Made by a program: the position numbers and the translations under genes | The notes under the pieces: model-generated | What the model was told of the DNA's origin: nothing | Database searches by the model: none | What the model saw: the letters and a program-made list of their open reading frames with translations, nothing else | Shown: positions 3,879 to 41,368 of the stretch, in pieces | How the letters are laid out: each line of letters starts with the position of its first letter | How positions within the stretch are numbered: the first letter of the stretch is position 1 | Sequence record: OR885871 | From: Escherichia phage vB_EcoM_JN03 | Strand: one strand, 5' to 3' | DNA: 64,000 nt

Positions 3879-4238
3879 ATGGCTATCACCACAAAAACTG
3901 AATTGAACGCGATCCTGAAAGAAGCTGGCTTCGGTAGTATCAAACGCCAGGGCAAGGTTTTACGCGATGGCGGTAAAATCGTAAAGGGTATCATGTTGGG
4001 AAGTACTGGCCCGTTGAGCATCAGCTCCCCTCAGTATGACAATCTTCGTAAACTGGCGCGTGAACTTCTCCAAGAAGACCTCCATATCACGACGCAAGAA
4101 ACCAATTATGTGGTTTTGGAATGCAACAAATTCATCGTCAGCCTTTACATCTGCAGCACCCGCTCATATCCGGTGTCTGAAGGTTATGACCCAATGTATC
4201 TGACCCATTATGCTCAGGTTACTGTCAAAGTAAAATAA
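3879..4238 (+). CDS. hypothetical protein (N-terminus MAITTKTEL)
   Basis: RBS AAGGA 9 nt upstream of ATG 3879; ORF-track start 3858 is TTG. Confidence 0.5.
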   Translation: MAITTKTELNAILKEAGFGSIKRQGKVLRDGGKIVKGIMLGSTGPLSISSPQYDNLRKLARELLQEDLHITTQETNYVVLECNKFIVSLYICSTRSYPVSEGYDPMYLTHYAQVTVKVK

Positions 4239-35908: not shown

Positions 35909-35918
35909 TATCGGTAAA

Positions 35919-35945
35919 AGCCCAACATTTGTTGGGCTTTAATTC
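35919..35945 (+). terminator. rho-independent terminator
   Basis: AGCCCAAC-ATTT-GTTGGGCT then T-rich. Confidence 0.55.
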
Positions 35946-36025
35946 AATAAAACTTTACTTCAATAAAACTTGCGGCTATCATTTATCCTACATTGAAAAG
36001 TTTCACTACATCATGAGAGGCAAAA

Positions 36026-37219
36026 ATGAAAGCCAAGACCTTCAGCATCCCAATTGATAATATTGGTCGTGTCAAGGAACGTCTTGCCAAACTTGAAAGA
36101 ACGGCAAACCGCCTGAAACTCGAGTTCCCTCTTGTTGAGTTCAGTGAACCATACAAAACACAACATCGCGATTCTATCACTGGCGAAAAATTTTTTCGTT
36201 GGTGGCAAGATTGTACTCTAACTGGTGAAGGCATCGACCGCCCCGTTTCCTACGGCGGGTGGAGCATTATTGGACAATTCAATCACCAATATCCAAAAGT
36301 CATCTTGAATAAATTAGCAGATGACATCCACCCAAATTTCGTTCAAAGATTCGAAGCCGAAAACGTGTCTTGGTGTGAGCATTGTAATAAATCTGTGCGT
36401 CGTCATAACACATATGTTGTTCGTAACGAACAATCTGGCGCACAGATGCTCGTGGGTAGCAGCTGCATGCATCATTATGTTCCGCATCAGAAATCGCTTG
36501 ATGCAGTTATGTCTTATTACATGTCTATTCACGAAATGTTTACTCCCGATGAAGATGACCCAGAAGGGATTTATCGGGTTAATGAACCAGATTATGTTGA
36601 CACAGAAGGATATTTGCGTAAATGCTTTCAGGTTTTGCTGTCCGGCCTGAGCATTAAAAGTGATGATTTTGGTCGAGTTCTTGGTCATATCTCTAGCGGC
36701 ACTCGTCCGGAGAAAGGTTCTGACATTGATATATTCTATAACAAGGCTGTTAAAGCCCGTGAAGATGCTCAATCAGAGATGTATCATATGATGCTTTTCA
36801 TCGCATCGTTGTCTGAAAATAACGATTTCAACGTCCGGCTGAAACGTATGTGCGAACCTGGTTATCACCTTGTTAAAGACTCAACAACAGTTCGTTGGGG
36901 AGCAGCAAAGTATTATGATTATATCCACACCCCCCGCCAAACGCGCACTGTATCAAATTGGGTTGGTGAAGTTGGTGAAATGTTAGAAGCACAGGTCAAA
37001 TTTGAAGCAAGGATTTTCCTGTATTCATCTGATTATGGTGACACGTATCTGTATACTTTCAAAACCAAGGAAGGCAATACCATTACATGGAAGACTTCCT
37101 ATATGGAAACCGAGTTTTTAGAAGGCGATATGATCATTCGAGGTCGTGTCAAAGAATTGACCGAATTCAAAGGTATTAAACAAACTCAGATTACAAGGGC
37201 AAAACTGAGGAAATTATGA
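36026..37219 (+). CDS. hypothetical protein with Cys/His cluster
   Basis: 397 aa; WCEHCNKS...GSSCMHHY. Confidence 0.45.
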   Translation: MKAKTFSIPIDNIGRVKERLAKLERTANRLKLEFPLVEFSEPYKTQHRDSITGEKFFRWWQDCTLTGEGIDRPVSYGGWSIIGQFNHQYPKVILNKLADDIHPNFVQRFEAENVSWCEHCNKSVRRHNTYVVRNEQSGAQMLVGSSCMHHYVPHQKSLDAVMSYYMSIHEMFTPDEDDPEGIYRVNEPDYVDTEGYLRKCFQVLLSGLSIKSDDFGRVLGHISSGTRPEKGSDIDIFYNKAVKAREDAQSEMYHMMLFIASLSENNDFNVRLKRMCEPGYHLVKDSTTVRWGAAKYYDYIHTPRQTRTVSNWVGEVGEMLEAQVKFEARIFLYSSDYGDTYLYTFKTKEGNTITWKTSYMETEFLEGDMIIRGRVKELTEFKGIKQTQITRAKLRKL

Positions 37220-37332
37220 TTCTTTTACAATTTGTTTTGAAAGCATTTGCATTCGGTCTTATCGCATGCGGAGTGATCACAGCTATGCTGTTAATCATAG
37301 CCCTGATCATCCCATTTAAGAGGAAACGTTAA
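37216..37332 (+). CDS. small hydrophobic peptide (38 aa, below ORF-track cutoff)
   Basis: MILLQFVLKAFAFGLIACGVITAMLLIIALIIPFKRKR; ATGA-coupled upstream, stop 1 nt before next ATG. Confidence 0.35.
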   Translation: MILLQFVLKAFAFGLIACGVITAMLLIIALIIPFKRKR

Positions 37333-38147: not shown

Positions 38148-38489
38148 ATGCCCACACTCGTAGAAACATTATTCCCAGGTTGTACGCTTGGGCGCGGCGG
38201 CTCTGAGGCCAATGGGTTAGCGATTGATGTTGAGCCTAAAAACTGCACCATCATCGACAAGTTTCACGACAATCATTATGCTCTGAATGATCGTCGCGAT
38301 CATTATTTGGTTTCTGTGGGAGAATCTTTGGTTCACCTTCGAATCTGTTCTGCTTTACCAGGATATGGGTATGACGCATTTGCTTATATCCATGATGTTT
38401 CCAACGGTGAGATGGGGAAAGAATCCCTGATTGAAAAATTCAAGAGTTGGAAGGAATCCTTCACCTCTGTCACACCACCTAAGAAATAA
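38148..38489 (+). CDS. hypothetical protein
   Basis: ATG ORF. Confidence 0.35.
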   Translation: MPTLVETLFPGCTLGRGGSEANGLAIDVEPKNCTIIDKFHDNHYALNDRRDHYLVSVGESLVHLRICSALPGYGYDAFAYIHDVSNGEMGKESLIEKFKSWKESFTSVTPPKK

Positions 38490-38504
38490 TTGAGGAATAT
38501 ATTA

Positions 38505-39113
38505 ATGTCACTGAAAACCTTTTTAAACCGCCTGTTCAGCACTGTCGAGGCCAATTTAACTGCAGGTTTGGATAAACTCACAGATACTGAGAAGCGTTTG
38601 AATCTGGCTGCACGGAAACTATCTGATGAAATCCGGCGTTTAGAAGAAGCCCGTGTAACCAATGTCCACCATGGCGTTAAGATGAAGAAGACCGCTGATG
38701 AAAATCTGGCTGAAGCCATCAAGCGAGAAACCATTTTGAAAGATGCGATCGCTCGTGGAGTAACTCCTACCCGCGCCGAAGCTTTAATCATACTCCACCG
38801 CCGTCGTATTGGTGAAGCCTTGCTGGATAAAGTCAAAGAGATCGAATCTGGCAGCGTGAAATTGAATTCGGCAATTGTTGAATTAGGTGACAAACTGGAC
38901 GCTGTTAAGTCTAATCTCGAATTGGTCCGAATTCAGAAAGAATCAAATGATCTTGGGTTAACTTTACCGGAAGACATCGATTACGCGGCTGGAATGATTA
39001 ATGTCGACGTTGATGCTATCCTTCGGGAAGCCGAAATCGCAGATTCCAATTATTCTACCAATAGCCCTTCAGCAACAGAAGCGGACAATTATCTGGCAAG
39101 TTTATCAAAATAA
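38505..39113 (+). CDS. PspA/IM30-like coiled-coil protein, tentative
   Basis: N-terminus FLNRLFSTVEANLTAGLDKL resembles PspA FSRFADIVNANINALLEKA; all-helical about 200 aa. Confidence 0.4.
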   Translation: MSLKTFLNRLFSTVEANLTAGLDKLTDTEKRLNLAARKLSDEIRRLEEARVTNVHHGVKMKKTADENLAEAIKRETILKDAIARGVTPTRAEALIILHRRRIGEALLDKVKEIESGSVKLNSAIVELGDKLDAVKSNLELVRIQKESNDLGLTLPEDIDYAAGMINVDVDAILREAEIADSNYSTNSPSATEADNYLASLSK

Positions 39114-39150
39114 TATAGAAGGGGCATATGCCCCTTCATTTGGGGGATTT

Positions 39151-39723
39151 ATGGTCATTATTGACTCAACAGATATTTTGATTGCTGTTCTTAGTATGGT
39201 TGGGGTCTGTATTCTCGTTATGGGAATCAAAAAATCTTTGGGAAAACGGGTTGTTGAGGCCGTCTCCTCAGATTTACAACCAGAAAATACCACGAAAAAT
39301 GTTAAAGACATAAAACTTATTCTGAGTAGTCGTGTGTCCAAAAGTTTGGTTCCTAGCATAGAGGATTTCAACTTAGACCACAAAGACCCAGACACTACTC
39401 CTGAAGAATATTTTCAATATTTCATGGGAGGTTTGGGTTGGCCGTTCATAGAATCGTGTGTATCAAAATCAAATTGTTTCTATTTGAAAATAGCATGTAA
39501 AGATGGATATCAGGCTGTATGGTTTTGGAATTACAACGACACTTGCGATAAACAATTTTTGATATATCTTCACAGGTTGTTTAAAGAGTATATGAACAAC
39601 GGAAATGCCCCTATTCACAAGGCAGAAACTGTAGAATCTATCGTGGATCGTGCTCGAACTCGTAATGGAACGAAACCAGATTATCTTTCCAAGTATGGAT
39701 TTGTTTGGAAGGAAGACATATGA
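39151..39723 (+). CDS. membrane-anchored protein
   Basis: N-terminal TM ILIAVLSMVGVCILVMGI; RBS GGGGGA; preceded by hairpin. Confidence 0.4.
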   Translation: MVIIDSTDILIAVLSMVGVCILVMGIKKSLGKRVVEAVSSDLQPENTTKNVKDIKLILSSRVSKSLVPSIEDFNLDHKDPDTTPEEYFQYFMGGLGWPFIESCVSKSNCFYLKIACKDGYQAVWFWNYNDTCDKQFLIYLHRLFKEYMNNGNAPIHKAETVESIVDRARTRNGTKPDYLSKYGFVWKEDI

Positions 39724-39887
39724 AAGATATTTCATTTTATATTTGGTCTGCAATATTATTTTTCGGGATCTTGATTATTCTTTTTCAACCGTTTTGGGCC
39801 GAATGGATCAATAATAGAAGAATGCGCAAATATGGAGTGGATGTTCTTCAGATTGTAGATAAGGCCAGAAAAAGACGCAGCAAATAA
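39720..39887 (+). CDS. small membrane protein
   Basis: ATGA-coupled; TM segment FYIWSAILFFGILIILF. Confidence 0.35.
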   Translation: MKDISFYIWSAILFFGILIILFQPFWAEWINNRRMRKYGVDVLQIVDKARKRRSK

Positions 39888-39940: not shown

Positions 39941-41368
39941 ATGATGCTTCCTCTTTTAGAAATAATTCAAAATCTTCGCGATACCAAAGGCACCAACGCC
40001 AAGAAAGCTGTGCTGACCGAGGCGTTTAGAAACAATCCAGAATTGGTTGATTTCCTTCAATATGTCTACGACCCAATGCGTTCTTATTACCGCACTCAAT
40101 TCAATCTAAACGCATTCCCTCGCATGCTCTCGCGCGGCGTTGTTGGTAGCTGGGATCAGGTTTATGACGTTCTCGATATGATGGCCGAACGCAAGATCGG
40201 TGGGATGAAGGCAGATCAAGAACTGGCGAAGGCTGCAACCAACATCCATCCGGATTACCATACCCTGATACAAATTATACTCGACAGAGACATCAAAGCG
40301 GGAATTGCCGAAAAAGGTATAAACGCAGCATTCAACGCAGCAGGTGGTACAGGGCGTCTGATTAATATCCTTCCATATCACCGTTATGATAACATGACGA
40401 TTGACTTGCTGAAGAAGATGGACTTCAAGCGCGGCGTCTTCAGCCAGCTGAAGTCAGATGGCATGTTCGCCAACATCATCTGTCGTTATGGAAGAGACCC
40501 AGAGATTCGTTCTCGTTCCGGTTCTCTTATTGCGGGTGGTTCCGTTGATAACCTGTCATTGGTTTTCAAAGACCTGATCTACGATGCGGGGATCGGTGAA
40601 AGCGTCTTCCATGGTGAACTGCTCGTCATTGATCTGAAAACGTATACAGTGTTGCCTCGGGCTATCGGCAATGGTAAGCTCAACAGTGTCATCCAAACGG
40701 GTGAACCTCTGGAAGATCGTTACAAGGTGATCTACCGAGTGTGGGATGTTGTGCCGTATGATAATTGGTTCAATGCTCAGCGTGTGGACACCCCATATGA
40801 TCGCCGTTTTGATATCATACAACAGTTGTTCGAAGGGGATGACGGCCTGGTTCAGGTTCAAGAAACCCGTGTTGTTCATTCATTTGAAGAAGCTGTCGAA
40901 CACTTCAAAGATGCTTTGGCTCGTCGGGAAGAAGGCACGATTTGTAAGGCTGCAGATATGCCTTGGGAAGATGGAACATCATCTGAAGGGTTAAAGCTGA
41001 AAATGGAAGTAGAATGTGACCTTGAAATCGTTGGCTTCAATGAGGCCGATAAGAAAGGGAAGCACGCCAAGACATTTGGATCTCTCCTCTGCAAGACCTC
41101 TGATGGCCTCTTAGTTGTTGGCGTATCGGGGATCTCAGATGAGTTGAGACTACGAATGTGGGAAAACCAAGAGGACTTCATTGGTAAGATTGCCGCCGTG
41201 CTCTCTAATGGCGTACAGGATAAAACCGATGACGCCATGAAGTCTCTATTCCTTCCACGTCTCGTTGAAGTACGCACAGACAAGAAAGTCGCTAATACAC
41301 TGGCTGAAGTCTATGCTATCCAGAAAGCATATATCGAAAATATTTTGGTGTTGTTGGAAGCGGCATGA
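39941..41368 (+). CDS. ATP-dependent DNA ligase
   Basis: Adenylation motif LKSDGMF (KxDG); 475 aa. Confidence 0.8.
   Translation: MMLPLLEIIQNLRDTKGTNAKKAVLTEAFRNNPELVDFLQYVYDPMRSYYRTQFNLNAFPRMLSRGVVGSWDQVYDVLDMMAERKIGGMKADQELAKAATNIHPDYHTLIQIILDRDIKAGIAEKGINAAFNAAGGTGRLINILPYHRYDNMTIDLLKKMDFKRGVFSQLKSDGMFANIICRYGRDPEIRSRSGSLIAGGSVDNLSLVFKDLIYDAGIGESVFHGELLVIDLKTYTVLPRAIGNGKLNSVIQTGEPLEDRYKVIYRVWDVVPYDNWFNAQRVDTPYDRRFDIIQQLFEGDDGLVQVQETRVVHSFEEAVEHFKDALARREEGTICKAADMPWEDGTSSEGLKLKMEVECDLEIVGFNEADKKGKHAKTFGSLLCKTSDGLLVVGVSGISDELRLRMWENQEDFIGKIAAVLSNGVQDKTDDAMKSLFLPRLVEVRTDKKVANTLAEVYAIQKAYIENILVLLEAA

What the first reader, a model, noticed from the sequence alone, without database searches (positions are those of the whole stretch)
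38505..39887. PspA/IM30-like protein followed by two membrane proteins
The 38505-39113 product is an all-helical protein of about 200 aa whose N-terminus (FLNRLFSTVEANLTAGLDKL) parallels PspA (FSRFADIVNANINALLEKA). It is followed by a 190-aa N-terminally anchored membrane protein and a 55-aa single-TM protein (ATGA-coupled), which recalls a pspA-B-C-like layout. A phage-encoded membrane-stress or ESCRT-III-like module could stabilise the membrane or time lysis. Such a module is unusual in T4-like genomes.
Basis: inference. Interest (0 to 1): 0.5.

Follow-up and report, generated by a model that had tools for sequence, protein, structure and literature searches.

The report
Phage PspA-like protein with membrane partners
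A Salmonella phage of the Kuttervirus group carries an optional three-gene cassette: a diverged relative of the bacterial membrane-repair protein PspA (the same family as phage T4 gene e.6) followed by two small inner-membrane proteins; the PspA resemblance is real but already published, and nobody has tested what the cassette does.

Summary
The three ORFs exist as described (38505-39113, 39151-39723, 39720-39887, with the ATGA overlap). The window is a Kuttervirus (Ackermannviridae, 99% identical to Salmonella phage moki), not a T4-type phage.

ORF A is a genuine but diverged PspA/Vipp1 (ESCRT-III superfamily) homologue over helices a0-a3:
- Pfam scores 33.7 bits against a cut-off of 33.9.
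- With the family profile, the top nine PDB hits are all Vipp1/PspA.
- hhalign gives 94% probability, E 9e-8.

Its C-terminal quarter is family-specific. It belongs to the T4 e.6 family (PHROG 1203), found in about 390 Straboviridae and Ackermannviridae genomes, so it is not unusual. Both the Kuttervirus-PspA link and the e.6-PspA link are already published, in silico only.

ORF B and ORF C are not PspB/PspC homologues. They are predicted N-out/C-in inner-membrane proteins that share a cytoplasmic 'IVxxARxRR' motif. They accompany ORF A in every Ackermannviridae genome examined. About three quarters of Kutterviruses lack all three genes, in at least one lineage through a single 1.38-kb deletion.

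Best reading: an accessory, probably early/middle-expressed membrane-maintenance module, possibly anti-abortive-infection, in which membrane anchors recruit a PspA-like effector. The function is untested, and a lysis-timing role has no support.

The parts
38505..39113 (+). ORF A, 202 aa: PspA/Vipp1-like protein of the phage T4 e.6 family (PHROG 1203).
   Evidence: ORF list. phrog_1203 E 1e-66. PF04012 at 33.7 bits. An Ackermannviridae-only HMM scores T4 e.6 at 68.4 bits.
38505..38570 (+). aa 1-22: putative amphipathic N-terminal helix a0. The hydrophobic face is L3, F6, L7, L10, F11, V14, L18; K4 and R9 lie on the polar side.
   Evidence: Aligns to a0 of Vipp1/PspA. Hydrophobic moment 0.40, against 0.47 for E. 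coli PspA and 0.57-0.61 for Vipp1. Predicted helical but with low pLDDT.
38523..38942 (+). aa 7-146: the a1-a2/a3 helical hairpin. This is the region homologous to PspA/Vipp1.
   Evidence: Pfam alignment aa 7-146 to profile 3-143. PDB profile hits cover 1-145. hhalign covers columns 4-147. AlphaFold2 gives helices 3-83 and 90-149 at pLDDT 86-97.
38952..39110 (+). aa 150-202: family-specific C-terminal region. It holds the conserved linker LGLxLPEDI(D/E)Y, a short helix DVDAILRE and a terminal helix E(A/I)DNYLASL. It has no detectable similarity to PspA a4/a5.
   Evidence: Conserved across the family; G151 and Y196 are nearly invariant in 41 sequences. All profile alignments to PspA stop at about residue 147. 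Predicted helices 169-176 and 190-201.
39118..39137 (+). GC-rich stem-loop GAAGGGGCATATGCCCCTTC, 5 nt after the ORF A stop codon. The ORF B ribosome-binding site (GGGGGA) follows it. It may be a partial terminator or an mRNA stabiliser.
   Evidence: Terminator-like scan, sequence, RNA fold -16.1 kcal/mol with z -1.9. Its function was not tested.
39151..39723 (+). ORF B, 190 aa: bitopic inner-membrane protein (PHROG 11433). The N-terminal TM segment is aa 8-26 (39172-39228). The alpha/beta C-terminal domain is predicted to be cytoplasmic.
   Evidence: Topology is inferred from the positive-inside rule: an acidic N-terminus and KKSLGKR after the TM segment. Homologues lie immediately downstream of the e.6-like gene in Taipeivirus, Agtrevirus and Miltonvirus. 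88 phage records carry it.
39625..39666 (+). ORF B motif ETVESIVDRARTRN: the 'IVxxARxR' helix that ORF B shares with the small TM proteins.
   Evidence: Motif HMM built from the ORF B family. Lies in the region of a predicted helix (aa 161-171) in a low-confidence model.
39720..39887 (+). ORF C, 55 aa: single-pass membrane protein (PHROG 37830). The TM segment is aa 4-22 (39729-39785). The basic C-terminal tail is predicted to be cytoplasmic. Translationally coupled to ORF B through the ATGA overlap.
   Evidence: Analogous small TM proteins follow ORF B in the other Ackermannviridae: one in Taipeivirus, three in Agtrevirus.
39843..39884 (+). ORF C C-terminal motif VLQIVDKARKRRSK, the same 'IVxxARxRR' motif as in ORF B.
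   Evidence: With an HMM trained only on ORF B proteins, 6 of the top 7 non-training hits among 1,734 six-frame ORF segments are the cassette's small TM proteins. Each hit lies 2-5 residues from the C-terminus.
38486..39865 (.). The 1,380-bp block holding ORF A, ORF B and most of ORF C. It is absent from PhaxI-type Kutterviruses. The deletion fuses the upstream 113-aa gene in frame to the last codons of ORF C.
   Evidence: Megablast: only 40 of 176 records cover the block. BLASTN break-points and the PhaxI gp010 C-terminus ...TPPNNRKRRSK*. Phage maane has a second junction type, 38472|39883.
35918..35982 (+). Likely start of the transcription unit that contains the cassette. It comprises a terminator-like hairpin (AAAGCCCAAC...GTTGGGCTTTT), two exact copies of TTCAATAAAACTT (35943-35955, 35959-35971) and a weak sigma-70-like site (TTTACT-17-TATCAT).
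   Evidence: Sequence, promoter scan 9/12 match, repeat search. Annotated as repeat_region in phage moki. These are consensus matches only and do not show function.

Best explanation
The region is an accessory three-gene membrane module of Ackermannviridae phages.

ORF A is a phage branch (T4 e.6 family) of the PspA/Vipp1/ESCRT-III superfamily. It keeps the amphipathic N-terminal helix and the long a1-a2/a3 hairpin, but it has its own short C-terminal helices. ORF B and ORF C are inner-membrane proteins with N-out/C-in topology. Each displays the same basic 'IVxxARxRR' helix on the cytoplasmic face.

The proposed mechanism has three steps:
1. The module is made early or in mid-infection from the replication-gene operon.
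2. The membrane anchors recruit or nucleate the PspA-like protein at the inner membrane.
3. There it coats or repairs stressed membrane and preserves the proton-motive force.

This would protect the infected cell against damage from genome injection or superinfection, and above all against membrane-depolarising abortive-infection effectors or premature permeabilisation.

Shown: the homology, the anatomy, the co-inheritance and the shared motif. Inferred: the topology, the A-B/C interaction, the timing in this phage and the biological role.
For: Homology of ORF A to PspA/Vipp1 over a0-a3:
- Pfam E 3.6e-8.
- 11 of 41 relatives hit PF04012.
- The nine best PDB hits of the family profile are all Vipp1/PspA, in register.
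- hhalign 94.4%, E 9e-8, with a reversed-template control at 0.2%.
- Foldseek PDB top hits are VIPP1.
- The BFVD search finds e.6 relatives first, then a phage 'PspA/IM30 family protein'.

Module behaviour:
- In Kuttervirus, A, B and C are present or absent together (40 of 176 records). One deletion allele retains the tail of ORF C, so the cassette is ancestral there.
- ORF B occurs in 88 phage records, about the same number as the Ackermannviridae-type ORF A records: 84 at 60% identity or more.
- The order A, then a B homologue, then one or more small TM proteins recurs in Taipeivirus, Agtrevirus and Miltonvirus, although B is only 24-37% identical.
- ORF B and the small TM proteins share a C-terminal motif, recovered by an HMM trained on B alone.

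Timing: the cassette sits between the primase-helicase and ligase genes. T4 e.6 is early RNA / middle protein, and e.5 and e.4 are early (PMC9697503 supplement).

Precedent: cellular PspA homologues work with lineage-specific, mutually non-homologous membrane partners such as PspBC, PspMN, LiaI/LiaF and YdjGH (PMC11237479). An anti-Abi role for this PHROG was proposed independently (PMC9409062).
Against: - There are no experimental data for any member of the family.
- ORF A scores 0.2 bits below the Pfam gathering threshold. No cellular PspA reaches E 1e-3 in the 1.8-billion-protein search.
- No similarity to PspA helices a4/a5 is detectable. Helix a5 is essential for Vipp1 polymerisation (PMC8281802), so polymer formation is uncertain.
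- Most Kutterviruses lack the cassette, so it is dispensable.
- In T4-like phages the gene after e.6 is a soluble e.5-type protein with no detectable relation to ORF B. Some of these phages have no membrane protein nearby. A membrane anchor is therefore not a universal requirement of the family.
- An interaction between A and B/C is inferred only from linkage.
Confidence: 0.5

Rival explanations
1. ORF A is a modulator or decoy of the host Psp response, not an effector. It would mimic the regulatory fragment PspA(1-144), bind the host activator PspF or cap host PspA polymers, and so switch off or poison the host's own membrane-stress response.
For: Similarity to PspA is confined to profile positions 3-143, the part present in the E. 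coli PspA(1-144) crystal fragment 4WHE. The polymerisation helices a4/a5 are not recognisable. That PspA(1-144) carries the PspF-binding activity comes from my own knowledge of the E. coli literature and was not checked here.
Against: The family profile matches cyanobacterial Vipp1 better (E 7e-6) than E. coli PspA (E 1.3e-3). A host-specific mimic would be expected to match the host protein better. The conserved N-terminal amphipathic helix and the linked membrane proteins fit a protein that acts at the membrane. The family occurs in phages of many genera, with 20-30% identity between branches.
Confidence: 0.15
2. The cassette is a lysis-timing, lysis-inhibition or superinfection-exclusion device. 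The membrane proteins would act as holin, antiholin or Imm/Sp-like factors, and ORF A would stabilise the membrane until lysis.
For: ORF B and ORF C are small inner-membrane proteins with cytoplasmic basic tails. In T4 and close relatives the e.6-e.2 block lies a few genes upstream of the lysozyme gene e. Stabilising the membrane would delay holin triggering; this is inference.
Against: Here the cassette lies in the replication operon, not next to any lysis gene. T4 e.6, e.5 and e.4 are early or middle, not late. There is no Pfam or PHROG holin, spanin or exclusion annotation. About three quarters of Kutterviruses lack the cassette.
Confidence: 0.12
3. ORF A is a PspA-derived coiled coil that has been recruited to a non-membrane role, such as a scaffold or chaperone in replication or assembly. 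ORF B and ORF C would then be unrelated neighbours in a variable region.
Against: The sequence-profile evidence points specifically to PspA/Vipp1. A, B and C are co-inherited and co-deleted across genera, and B and C share a motif. The 'tail completion' label has no support in Pfam or PHROGs.
Confidence: 0.13

Closest known systems
Phage T4 gene e.6 family (PHROG 1203)
   Same: True homologues. They have the same length (195-204 aa) and the same N-terminal helix, hairpin and C-terminal (D/E)xYLxSL end. An Ackermannviridae-only HMM scores T4 e.6 at 68.4 bits; see also the alignment. Records annotate relatives as 'e.6' or 'T4 gp e.6 like'. The link to PspA was reported by HHpred for Klebsiella phage Metamorpho (PMC7862958).
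   Different: Identity to T4 e.6 is only about 23%. In T4-like phages the next gene is a soluble e.5-type protein, followed by 2-TM proteins or by none. In Ackermannviridae it is a TM-anchored ORF B plus small 1-TM proteins. T4 e.6 alone does not hit PF04012, whereas the Ackermannviridae members do.
PspA / Vipp1 (IM30), Pfam PF04012, the bacterial branch of the ESCRT-III superfamily
   Same: The amphipathic a0 and the a1-a2/a3 hairpin align in register from residue 1 to about 145. The size is similar (202 aa against 222 aa). Both occur in operons with membrane proteins.
   Different: Identity is about 16-18%, and the Pfam score is just under the gathering threshold. The C-terminal 50 residues are unrelated in sequence, so a4/a5 are not recognisable. 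There is no PspF/sigma-54 control, and the partners are not PspB/PspC. The protein is encoded by a lytic phage and expressed from a replication operon.
PspBC (E. coli), LiaI-LiaH and YdjGH-PspA (B. subtilis): membrane partners that sense stress or anchor the PspA homologue
   Same: One or more small membrane proteins are encoded next to the PspA homologue. Partner families are lineage-specific and non-homologous (PMC11237479; PMC8581546 title). ORF B and ORF C would fill that role.
   Different: There is no sequence relationship. ORF B and ORF C share their own 'IVxxARxRR' motif. An anchoring function is inferred, not shown.
Kuttervirus SeF3a Gp_125, a 'phage-encoded PspA' proposed as an anti-Abi factor (Int J Mol Sci 2022, PMC9409062)
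   Same: Same PHROG (1203), same genus and same conclusion of PspA homology (HHsearch against pdb70). The authors also note that only some Kutterviruses carry it.
   Different: That paper treats the gene alone. It does not link it to T4 e.6 or to the co-inherited membrane proteins, and it regards the gene as peculiar to a few phages. Here the family is found in 392 phage records.
Full-length PspA/IM30 and Snf7 proteins of other viruses (Acinetobacter phage vB_AbaM_ME3; Megaviridae Snf7)
   Same: They are viral members of the same superfamily. They rank as structural neighbours just after the e.6 family in BFVD (ranks 6 and 9).
   Different: They are longer (229-268 aa) and annotated directly as PspA or Snf7. 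They are not part of the e.6 family (Foldseek E 5e-3 and 0.12).

Membership tests
PspA/IM30 (Pfam PF04012) | Score at or above the curated Pfam gathering threshold | tested here: inconclusive
   33.7 bits against a cut-off of 33.9, E 3.6e-8. Most close relatives carry a precomputed PF04012 hit. 11 of 41 diverse members hit individually. NCBI names one cluster 'PspA/IM30 family protein'.
PspA/Vipp1/ESCRT-III superfamily | Long a1-a2/a3 helical hairpin, homologous in sequence to PspA/Vipp1 | tested here: met
PspA/Vipp1/ESCRT-III superfamily | N-terminal amphipathic helix a0 used for membrane binding | tested here: inconclusive
   Aligns with a0 of Vipp1/PspA and has a clear hydrophobic face. The hydrophobic moment is 0.40, lower than PspA (0.47) and Vipp1 (about 0.6). 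Model confidence is low for aa 2-19. Membrane binding cannot be tested here.
PspA/Vipp1/ESCRT-III superfamily | Helices a4 and a5, with a5 packing on a neighbour's hairpin to build the polymer (essential in Vipp1; PMC8281802) | tested here: inconclusive
   No sequence similarity beyond about residue 147. Two short conserved helices are predicted (169-176, and 190-201 at pLDDT about 89). They could be equivalents of a4 and a5, but that was not demonstrated.
PspA/Vipp1/ESCRT-III superfamily | Self-assembly into rings or rods, and membrane remodelling or protection | not testable with these tools
   Needs purified protein, electron microscopy and liposome assays.
Enterobacterial psp operon (pspF-pspABCDE) | PspB and PspC membrane partners | tested here: not met
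   ORF B and ORF C have no Pfam or NCBIfam match. BLASTP against E. coli PspB, PspC and PspD gives nothing significant; the best E is 0.53.
Enterobacterial psp operon (pspF-pspABCDE) | Sigma-54 promoter with PspF control | tested here: not met
   No TGGCAC-N5-TTGC-like site on the + strand between 35900 and 38505. Window-wide matches equal chance expectation (57 found, 55.9 expected).
Phage T4 e.6 family (PHROG 1203) | Full-length homology to T4 e.6 and its relatives | tested here: met
   phrog_1203 E 1e-66 over 199 of 200 positions. The A1 HMM scores T4 e.6 at 68.4 bits and other T4-like e.6 proteins at 70-120 bits. tblastn finds 392 phage records.
T4 e.5 family (the gene after e.6 in T4-like phages) | ORF B homologous to e.5 | tested here: not met
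   BLASTP gives E 0.24 or higher. hhalign of the two family alignments gives probability 0.1%. The ORF B/C motif HMM does not rank the e.5 C-termini.
Known anti-phage defence or counter-defence families (PADLOC) | Match to a PADLOC model | tested here: not met
   No hit for ORF A, ORF B, ORF C, T4 e.6 or T4 e.5.

The most novel reading that the evidence does not exclude
[quoted passage not shown] In Ackermannviridae they would be docked through the cytoplasmic 'IVxxARxRR' helices of dedicated phage membrane anchors (ORF B and ORF C). In T4-like phages a different partner (e.5) would do this. They would act as a portable membrane-repair and counter-defence system that keeps the infected cell energised against pore-forming or depolarising abortive-infection effectors. 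This would be the first virus-encoded ESCRT-III-type membrane-repair machine in bacteria. It could be studied directly in T4.
Probability: 0.3. Interest if true: 0.7.

Novelty: already known. Interest (0 to 1): 0.35.

Why it matters
PspA, Vipp1 and ESCRT-III proteins are the universal membrane-repair and membrane-remodelling polymers. A diverged version of them is conserved in hundreds of large lytic phages, including the model phage T4 (gene e.6), and no function has been assigned to it.

If it preserves the host membrane during infection or neutralises membrane-targeting abortive-infection systems, it would be a new class of counter-defence. It would also explain why related therapeutic Kutterviruses differ in host range or efficiency.

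This analysis adds three things to the published in-silico notes:
- The Kuttervirus 'PspA' and T4 e.6 are unified as one family.
- In Ackermannviridae the gene is part of a co-inherited three-gene cassette with membrane anchors that share a motif.
- The cassette is an ancestral block that many Kutterviruses lack, which provides natural plus/minus pairs for experiments.

As a genome-scan finding it is nevertheless a rediscovery.

Tried and rejected
1. ORF B as a homologue of T4 e.5. By eye the two families share features: an N-terminal 'xxYFxxxMxxLGxP'-like stretch and a C-terminal '[DE]x[IF][VI]xx[AC]R'. Neither hhalign (probability 0.1%), nor BLASTP, nor a motif HMM scan of 667 Straboviridae ORF segments supports this. 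Rejected as unsupported.
2. Structure of ORF B. AlphaFold2 with a 6-sequence alignment gave pLDDT 41. That is unusable, so no fold search was run on it.
4. A single-sequence search of PDB found nothing. NCBIfam found nothing. PADLOC found nothing.
5. The profile search of 1.84 billion representatives returned only phage-type proteins, nearly all of about 200 aa plus a few shorter ones, and no cellular PspA at E 1e-3 or better.
6. The search for related loci with the broad alignment failed because there was no conserved stretch. The afdb50 library was unavailable.
7. No sigma-54 promoter was found. The sigma-70 and terminator scans do not exceed chance for promoters.
8. Literature. No experimental paper on T4 e.6 or a phage PspA was found. 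Only two in-silico mentions turned up, plus the T4 omics classification.
9. The record labels 'tail completion protein' (ORF A in UPM 2146 and PWKp5), 'DNA ligase' (the upstream 113-aa gene) and '1-acyl-sn-glycerol-3-phosphate acyltransferase' (ORF C in STP55) have no support in Pfam or PHROGs.
Full report
**Identity of the window.** The 6.5 kb around the finding is 99.2% identical to Salmonella phage moki and 97-98% identical to SFP10, kage, SP1 and other Kutterviruses. The moki record places the region in the family Ackermannviridae, genus Kuttervirus.
- The genes lie on the + strand, in a block of nucleotide-metabolism and replication genes: thymidylate synthase, dNMP kinase, a RecA-like protein, primase-helicase, then the cassette, then DNA ligase and a gp59-like helicase loader. 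Tail genes follow on the opposite strand.
- The genome is therefore not a T4-type phage in the strict sense, although it shares T4-like replication genes.

**The observation.** The ORF list and the sequence confirm all three ORFs.
- ORF A is 38505-39113, 202 aa.
- ORF B is 39151-39723, 190 aa.
- ORF C is 39720-39887, 55 aa, with an ATGA stop/start overlap with ORF B.
- ORF B and ORF C each have one strongly hydrophobic N-terminal segment (mean Kyte-Doolittle 2.59 and 2.48 over 19 residues). ORF A has none.
- In both membrane proteins the few residues before the TM segment are acidic or neutral, and the stretch after it is rich in Lys and Arg. By the positive-inside rule, both should be N-out/C-in with their bulk in the cytoplasm. 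This is inference.
- The PHROG assignments are 1203 (unknown function), 11433 ('membrane protein') and 37830 (unknown function).

**Is ORF A PspA-like?** Sequence profiles say yes.
- Pfam PspA_IM30 matches aa 7-146 to profile positions 3-143 of 220, with E 3.6e-8 and 33.7 bits. That is 0.2 bits under the curated cut-off.
- Relatives in the 5.8-billion-protein collection number only 47 clusters. Nearly all are 200-204 aa, most carry a precomputed PF04012 hit, and NCBI names one 'PspA/IM30 family protein'.
- A profile of 29 Ackermannviridae-type sequences puts Nostoc Vipp1 at the top of PDB, but only at E 0.03.
- A broader profile of 41 sequences includes T4 e.6 and the 50%-identity representatives from the exhaustive search. 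Its nine best PDB hits are all Vipp1/PspA, including E. coli PspA 4WHE. Their E-values run from 6.9e-6 to 1.3e-3, and all align in register from residue 1 to about 145. The first unrelated coiled coil follows at E 0.02.
- hhalign of that family alignment against a three-sequence PspA/Vipp1 alignment gives probability 94.4% and E 9e-8 over 141 columns. The same template reversed gives 0.2%.
- 11 of the 41 members hit PF04012 on their own. T4 e.6 itself does not.

**Structure evidence for ORF A.** Structure agrees with the profiles but adds little.
- AlphaFold2 (pLDDT 79.8) predicts a long hairpin (helices 3-83 and 90-149) plus two short C-terminal helices.
- Foldseek against PDB ranks VIPP1 structures first, but at E about 0.02 and interleaved with ciliary coiled coils.

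**Limits of the similarity.** Every alignment to PspA stops near residue 147.
- The last 50 residues are conserved within the phage family: the linker LGLxLPEDI(D/E)Y, the helix DVDAILRE and the terminal helix ExDNYLASL. G151 and Y196 are nearly invariant across 41 diverse sequences.
- These residues show no similarity to PspA helices a4/a5. Liu et al. showed that helix a5 is essential for Vipp1 polymerisation and that its contact with a neighbour's hairpin defines the superfamily (PMC8281802).
- The terminal helix of ORF A is predicted with high confidence (block mean pLDDT 89). It might play that role, but this is untested.
- The N-terminal helix has a clear hydrophobic face and aligns with a0. 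Its hydrophobic moment (0.40) is lower than that of PspA (0.47) or Vipp1 (0.57-0.61).

**The family is T4 e.6.** tblastn with ORF A finds 392 phage records.
- About 84 are at 60% identity or more: Kuttervirus, Agtrevirus and Taipeivirus.
- 308 are more distant. These are mostly Straboviridae infecting Klebsiella, Enterobacter, Cronobacter, Citrobacter, Aeromonas, Serratia, Erwinia, Proteus and Yersinia.
- Several records label the gene 'e.6' or 'T4 gp e.6 like'.
- An HMM built only from the Ackermannviridae sequences scores T4 e.6 at 68.4 bits and other T4-like e.6 proteins at 70-120 bits.
- BFVD structural neighbours are, in order, e.6-family proteins, then a 'PspA/IM30 family protein' of Acinetobacter phage ME3, with a Megaviridae Snf7 protein at rank 9.
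- The statement that such a protein is unusual in T4-like genomes is therefore incorrect. It is a conserved feature of them.

**Prior knowledge.** Two papers already make the link, both purely in silico.
- The genome announcement of Klebsiella phage Metamorpho reports that its e.6 homologue aligns with E. coli PspA 4WHE at 99.9% HHpred probability (PMC7862958).
- A salmophage study reports that phrog_1203 (Gp_125 of Kuttervirus SeF3a) is a PspA homologue found in only 4 of 15 Kutterviruses. It proposes that the protein counteracts abortive-infection systems that dissipate the proton-motive force (PMC9409062).
- No experimental work on e.6 or a phage PspA turned up.
- The T4 multi-omics study classifies e.6 as early RNA / middle protein, and e.5, e.4, e.7 and e.8 as early/early. 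The T4 protein is therefore made, and well before lysis (PMC9697503 supplement).

**The two membrane proteins.** ORF B and ORF C are not PspB/PspC.
- There is no Pfam or NCBIfam hit and no BLAST similarity to E. coli PspB, PspC or PspD. No sigma-54 promoter lies upstream.
- They are nevertheless tied to ORF A. In Kuttervirus the three genes are present or absent together: only 40 of 176 records that match the region cover the block.
- In PhaxI-type genomes exactly 38486-39865 is missing. The upstream 113-aa gene then ends ...TPPNNRKRRSK*, an in-frame fusion to the last codons of ORF C. In that lineage the cassette-bearing state is ancestral and the short form is a deletion.
- Phage maane has a different junction, 38472|39883. 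The cassette-free state therefore exists with at least two distinct junctions.
- ORF B occurs in 88 phage records (Salmonella 43, Klebsiella 30, Escherichia 5, Shigella 5, Serratia 3, Enterobacter 2). This is about the number of Ackermannviridae-type ORF A records.

**Gene order in other Ackermannviridae genera.**
- Taipeivirus (PWKp5, IME250): e.6-like gene, then a TM-anchored ORF B homologue (24-35% identical), then one small TM protein, then ligase.
- Agtrevirus (SKML-39, pSal-SNUABM-02): e.6-like gene, ORF B homologue, then three tandem small TM proteins.
- Miltonvirus 3M: e.6-like gene, then two candidate TM-less relatives of the ORF B soluble domain (only weak, motif-level similarity), then two genes further on a 93-aa TM protein.

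**A shared motif.** ORF B carries a conserved helix ...E(S/T)IVxRAR(G/T)...
- Each small TM protein ends in ...(I/L)VxxAR(G/K/S)RR(K/R/Q).
- To test this without circularity, I built an HMM from the seven ORF B-family motifs only. I then scanned all 1,734 six-frame ORF segments of 30 aa or more in the 64-kb window and five other Ackermannviridae loci.
- After the training proteins, 6 of the next 7 hits are the cassette's small TM proteins, each 2-5 residues from its C-terminus.
- Individually these hits are weak (E 0.26-2.4). Collectively, chance is an implausible explanation.
- All membrane proteins of the cassette therefore present the same basic helix, by prediction on the cytoplasmic side. 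The simplest reading is a common docking site for one partner, for which ORF A is the obvious candidate. This is inference. A lipid-binding juxtamembrane helix is an alternative.

**Comparison with T4-like phages.** In nine Straboviridae loci the gene after e.6 is always a soluble e.5-type protein.
- These proteins have mutual BLAST links and a C-terminal F(I/V)xxC(R/K) motif.
- In Tevenvirinae and Bragavirus, one to three small two-TM proteins follow (e.4, e.3, e.2 in T4). In Pseudotevenvirus and Tulanevirus none follows.
- I suspected that e.5 and ORF B were distant homologues, but hhalign (probability 0.1%) and the motif HMM do not support it.
- The recurring theme is 'e.6 plus an adjacent partner of about 160-330 aa, often with small membrane proteins'. 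The partners are family-specific, as is also true of cellular PspA systems: PspBC, PspMN, LiaI/LiaF, YdjGH (PMC11237479).

**Expression context.**
- Upstream of the 397-aa gene at 36026 there is a terminator-like hairpin, two exact copies of TTCAATAAAACTT and a weak sigma-70-like site. Phage moki annotates a repeat_region there.
- Promoter-like matches in the region do not exceed chance, so this is only suggestive.
- A GC-rich stem-loop (39118-39137, -16 kcal/mol, z -1.9) separates ORF A from ORF B. It could lower read-through into the membrane-protein genes or stabilise the ORF A message. This is untested.

**Mechanism and confidence.**
- I am about 0.9 confident that ORF A is a PspA/Vipp1-superfamily homologue of the T4 e.6 family.
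- I am about 0.75 confident that A, B and C form one functional cassette.
- I am about 0.5 confident that the cassette maintains or repairs the inner membrane of the infected cell. In that model the anchors recruit the PspA-like protein, and counter-defence against depolarising abortive-infection systems is the most attractive selective reason.
- Three rivals remain open: a decoy of the host Psp regulator or polymer, a lysis or exclusion device, or a re-purposed coiled coil with unrelated neighbours. They fit the linkage, the timing and the sequence pattern less well.

**Verdict.**
- The exact protein is in public databases at 100% identity.
- The PHROG has been called a PspA homologue in print, and so has T4 e.6.
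- Three things are new here: the two literatures are unified, the three-gene cassette with its shared anchor motif is defined, and a deletion scar is found in cassette-free Kutterviruses.
- Interest is moderate. There is nothing a specialist would find very surprising, but the family is a cleanly testable, uncharacterised phage ESCRT-III-type protein that also exists in T4.

Noticed in passing
window 38148-38489 (+): The 113-aa gene just upstream of the cassette is annotated 'DNA ligase' in moki, maane, STP55 and other records. It has no Pfam match and falls in PHROG 5022 (unknown function). The label looks like a propagated annotation error; the real ligase is at 39941-41368.
   Followed up: partly
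L006 (Escherichia phage PhaxI) 2550-2909; corresponds to window 38148-38485 + 39866-39887: PhaxI gp010 is a chimera. It is the upstream 113-aa gene fused in frame to the last codons of ORF C (...TPPNNRKRRSK*). This is a scar of the 1,380-bp deletion that removed the PspA-like cassette.
   Followed up: yes
L019 (Salmonella phage STP55) 3727-3894 and 1217-1333: The 55-aa ORF C homologue is annotated '1-acyl-sn-glycerol-3-phosphate acyltransferase', and a 38-aa membrane peptide is annotated 'putative homing endonuclease'. Both labels are implausible for proteins of this size. ORF A is called 'tail completion protein' in Klebsiella phages UPM 2146 and PWKp5.
   Followed up: partly
window 39118-39137: A perfect 8-bp GC-rich stem-loop (GAAGGGGCATATGCCCCTTC) lies between ORF A and ORF B, immediately before the ORF B ribosome-binding site. 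It is flagged as terminator-like on both strands. The fold is -16.1 kcal/mol, z -1.9.
   Followed up: partly
window 35918-35982: A terminator-like hairpin is followed by two exact tandem copies of TTCAATAAAACTT and a weak sigma-70-like site, upstream of the 397-aa gene. It is annotated as repeat_region in phage moki. The 13-mer is not enriched elsewhere in the window.
   Followed up: partly
window 37216-37332 (+): A 38-aa ORF (MILLQFVLKAFAFGLIACGVITAMLLIIALIIPFKRKR) is almost entirely hydrophobic with a basic tail. It is another tiny membrane peptide in the same transcription unit. It lacks the IVxxARxRR motif.
   Followed up: no
L016 3703-4228 and L017 3684-4182 (Agtrevirus): Agtreviruses carry three tandem small single-TM proteins after the ORF B homologue, where Kuttervirus has one. 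All end in the same IVxxAR(G/K/S)RR motif, which suggests duplication of the anchor gene.
   Followed up: partly
L009 3679-4604 (Serratia phage 3M, Miltonvirus): Two consecutive TM-less genes follow the e.6-like gene. They look like relatives of the ORF B soluble domain (motif xxWxxxMxxLG(F/Y)P), but the similarity is weak and motif-level only. A 93-aa TM protein comes two genes later, so the membrane anchor can be separate from the soluble domain.
   Followed up: partly
L008 3646-4179 (Serratia phage IME250): The ORF B homologue (177 aa, N-terminal TM segment) is not annotated in the record. Only a 49-aa fragment at 4030-4179 is called.
   Followed up: yes
window 36026-37219 (+): A 397-aa protein of unknown function (PHROG 2319). 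Its C-terminal 100 residues or so also match four other PHROGs (30451, 3628, 27218, 4095), which suggests a shared mobile domain. The protein is missing from phage maane, which has a homing-endonuclease gene in that interval.
   Followed up: no
window 39941-39946: The ligase ORF begins with ATGATG. The ORF list starts it at 39941, whereas the moki record starts it at the second ATG (39944). A conserved TTATAAT element lies about 35 nt upstream and is retained in cassette-free genomes.
   Followed up: no
BFVD hits: Other viruses encode more canonical members of the same superfamily: a 229-aa 'PspA/IM30 family protein' in Acinetobacter phage vB_AbaM_ME3 and an Snf7-family protein in a Megaviridae sample. 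Viral ESCRT-III/PspA genes therefore appear in several distinct virus lineages.
   Followed up: no
protein P0007: An e.6-family protein is deposited as 'PspA/IM30 family protein [Salmonella enterica]' on contigs of about 160 kb. These are complete Kuttervirus-size genomes inside bacterial assemblies, so they reflect contamination or a carrier state rather than a bacterial gene.
   Followed up: no
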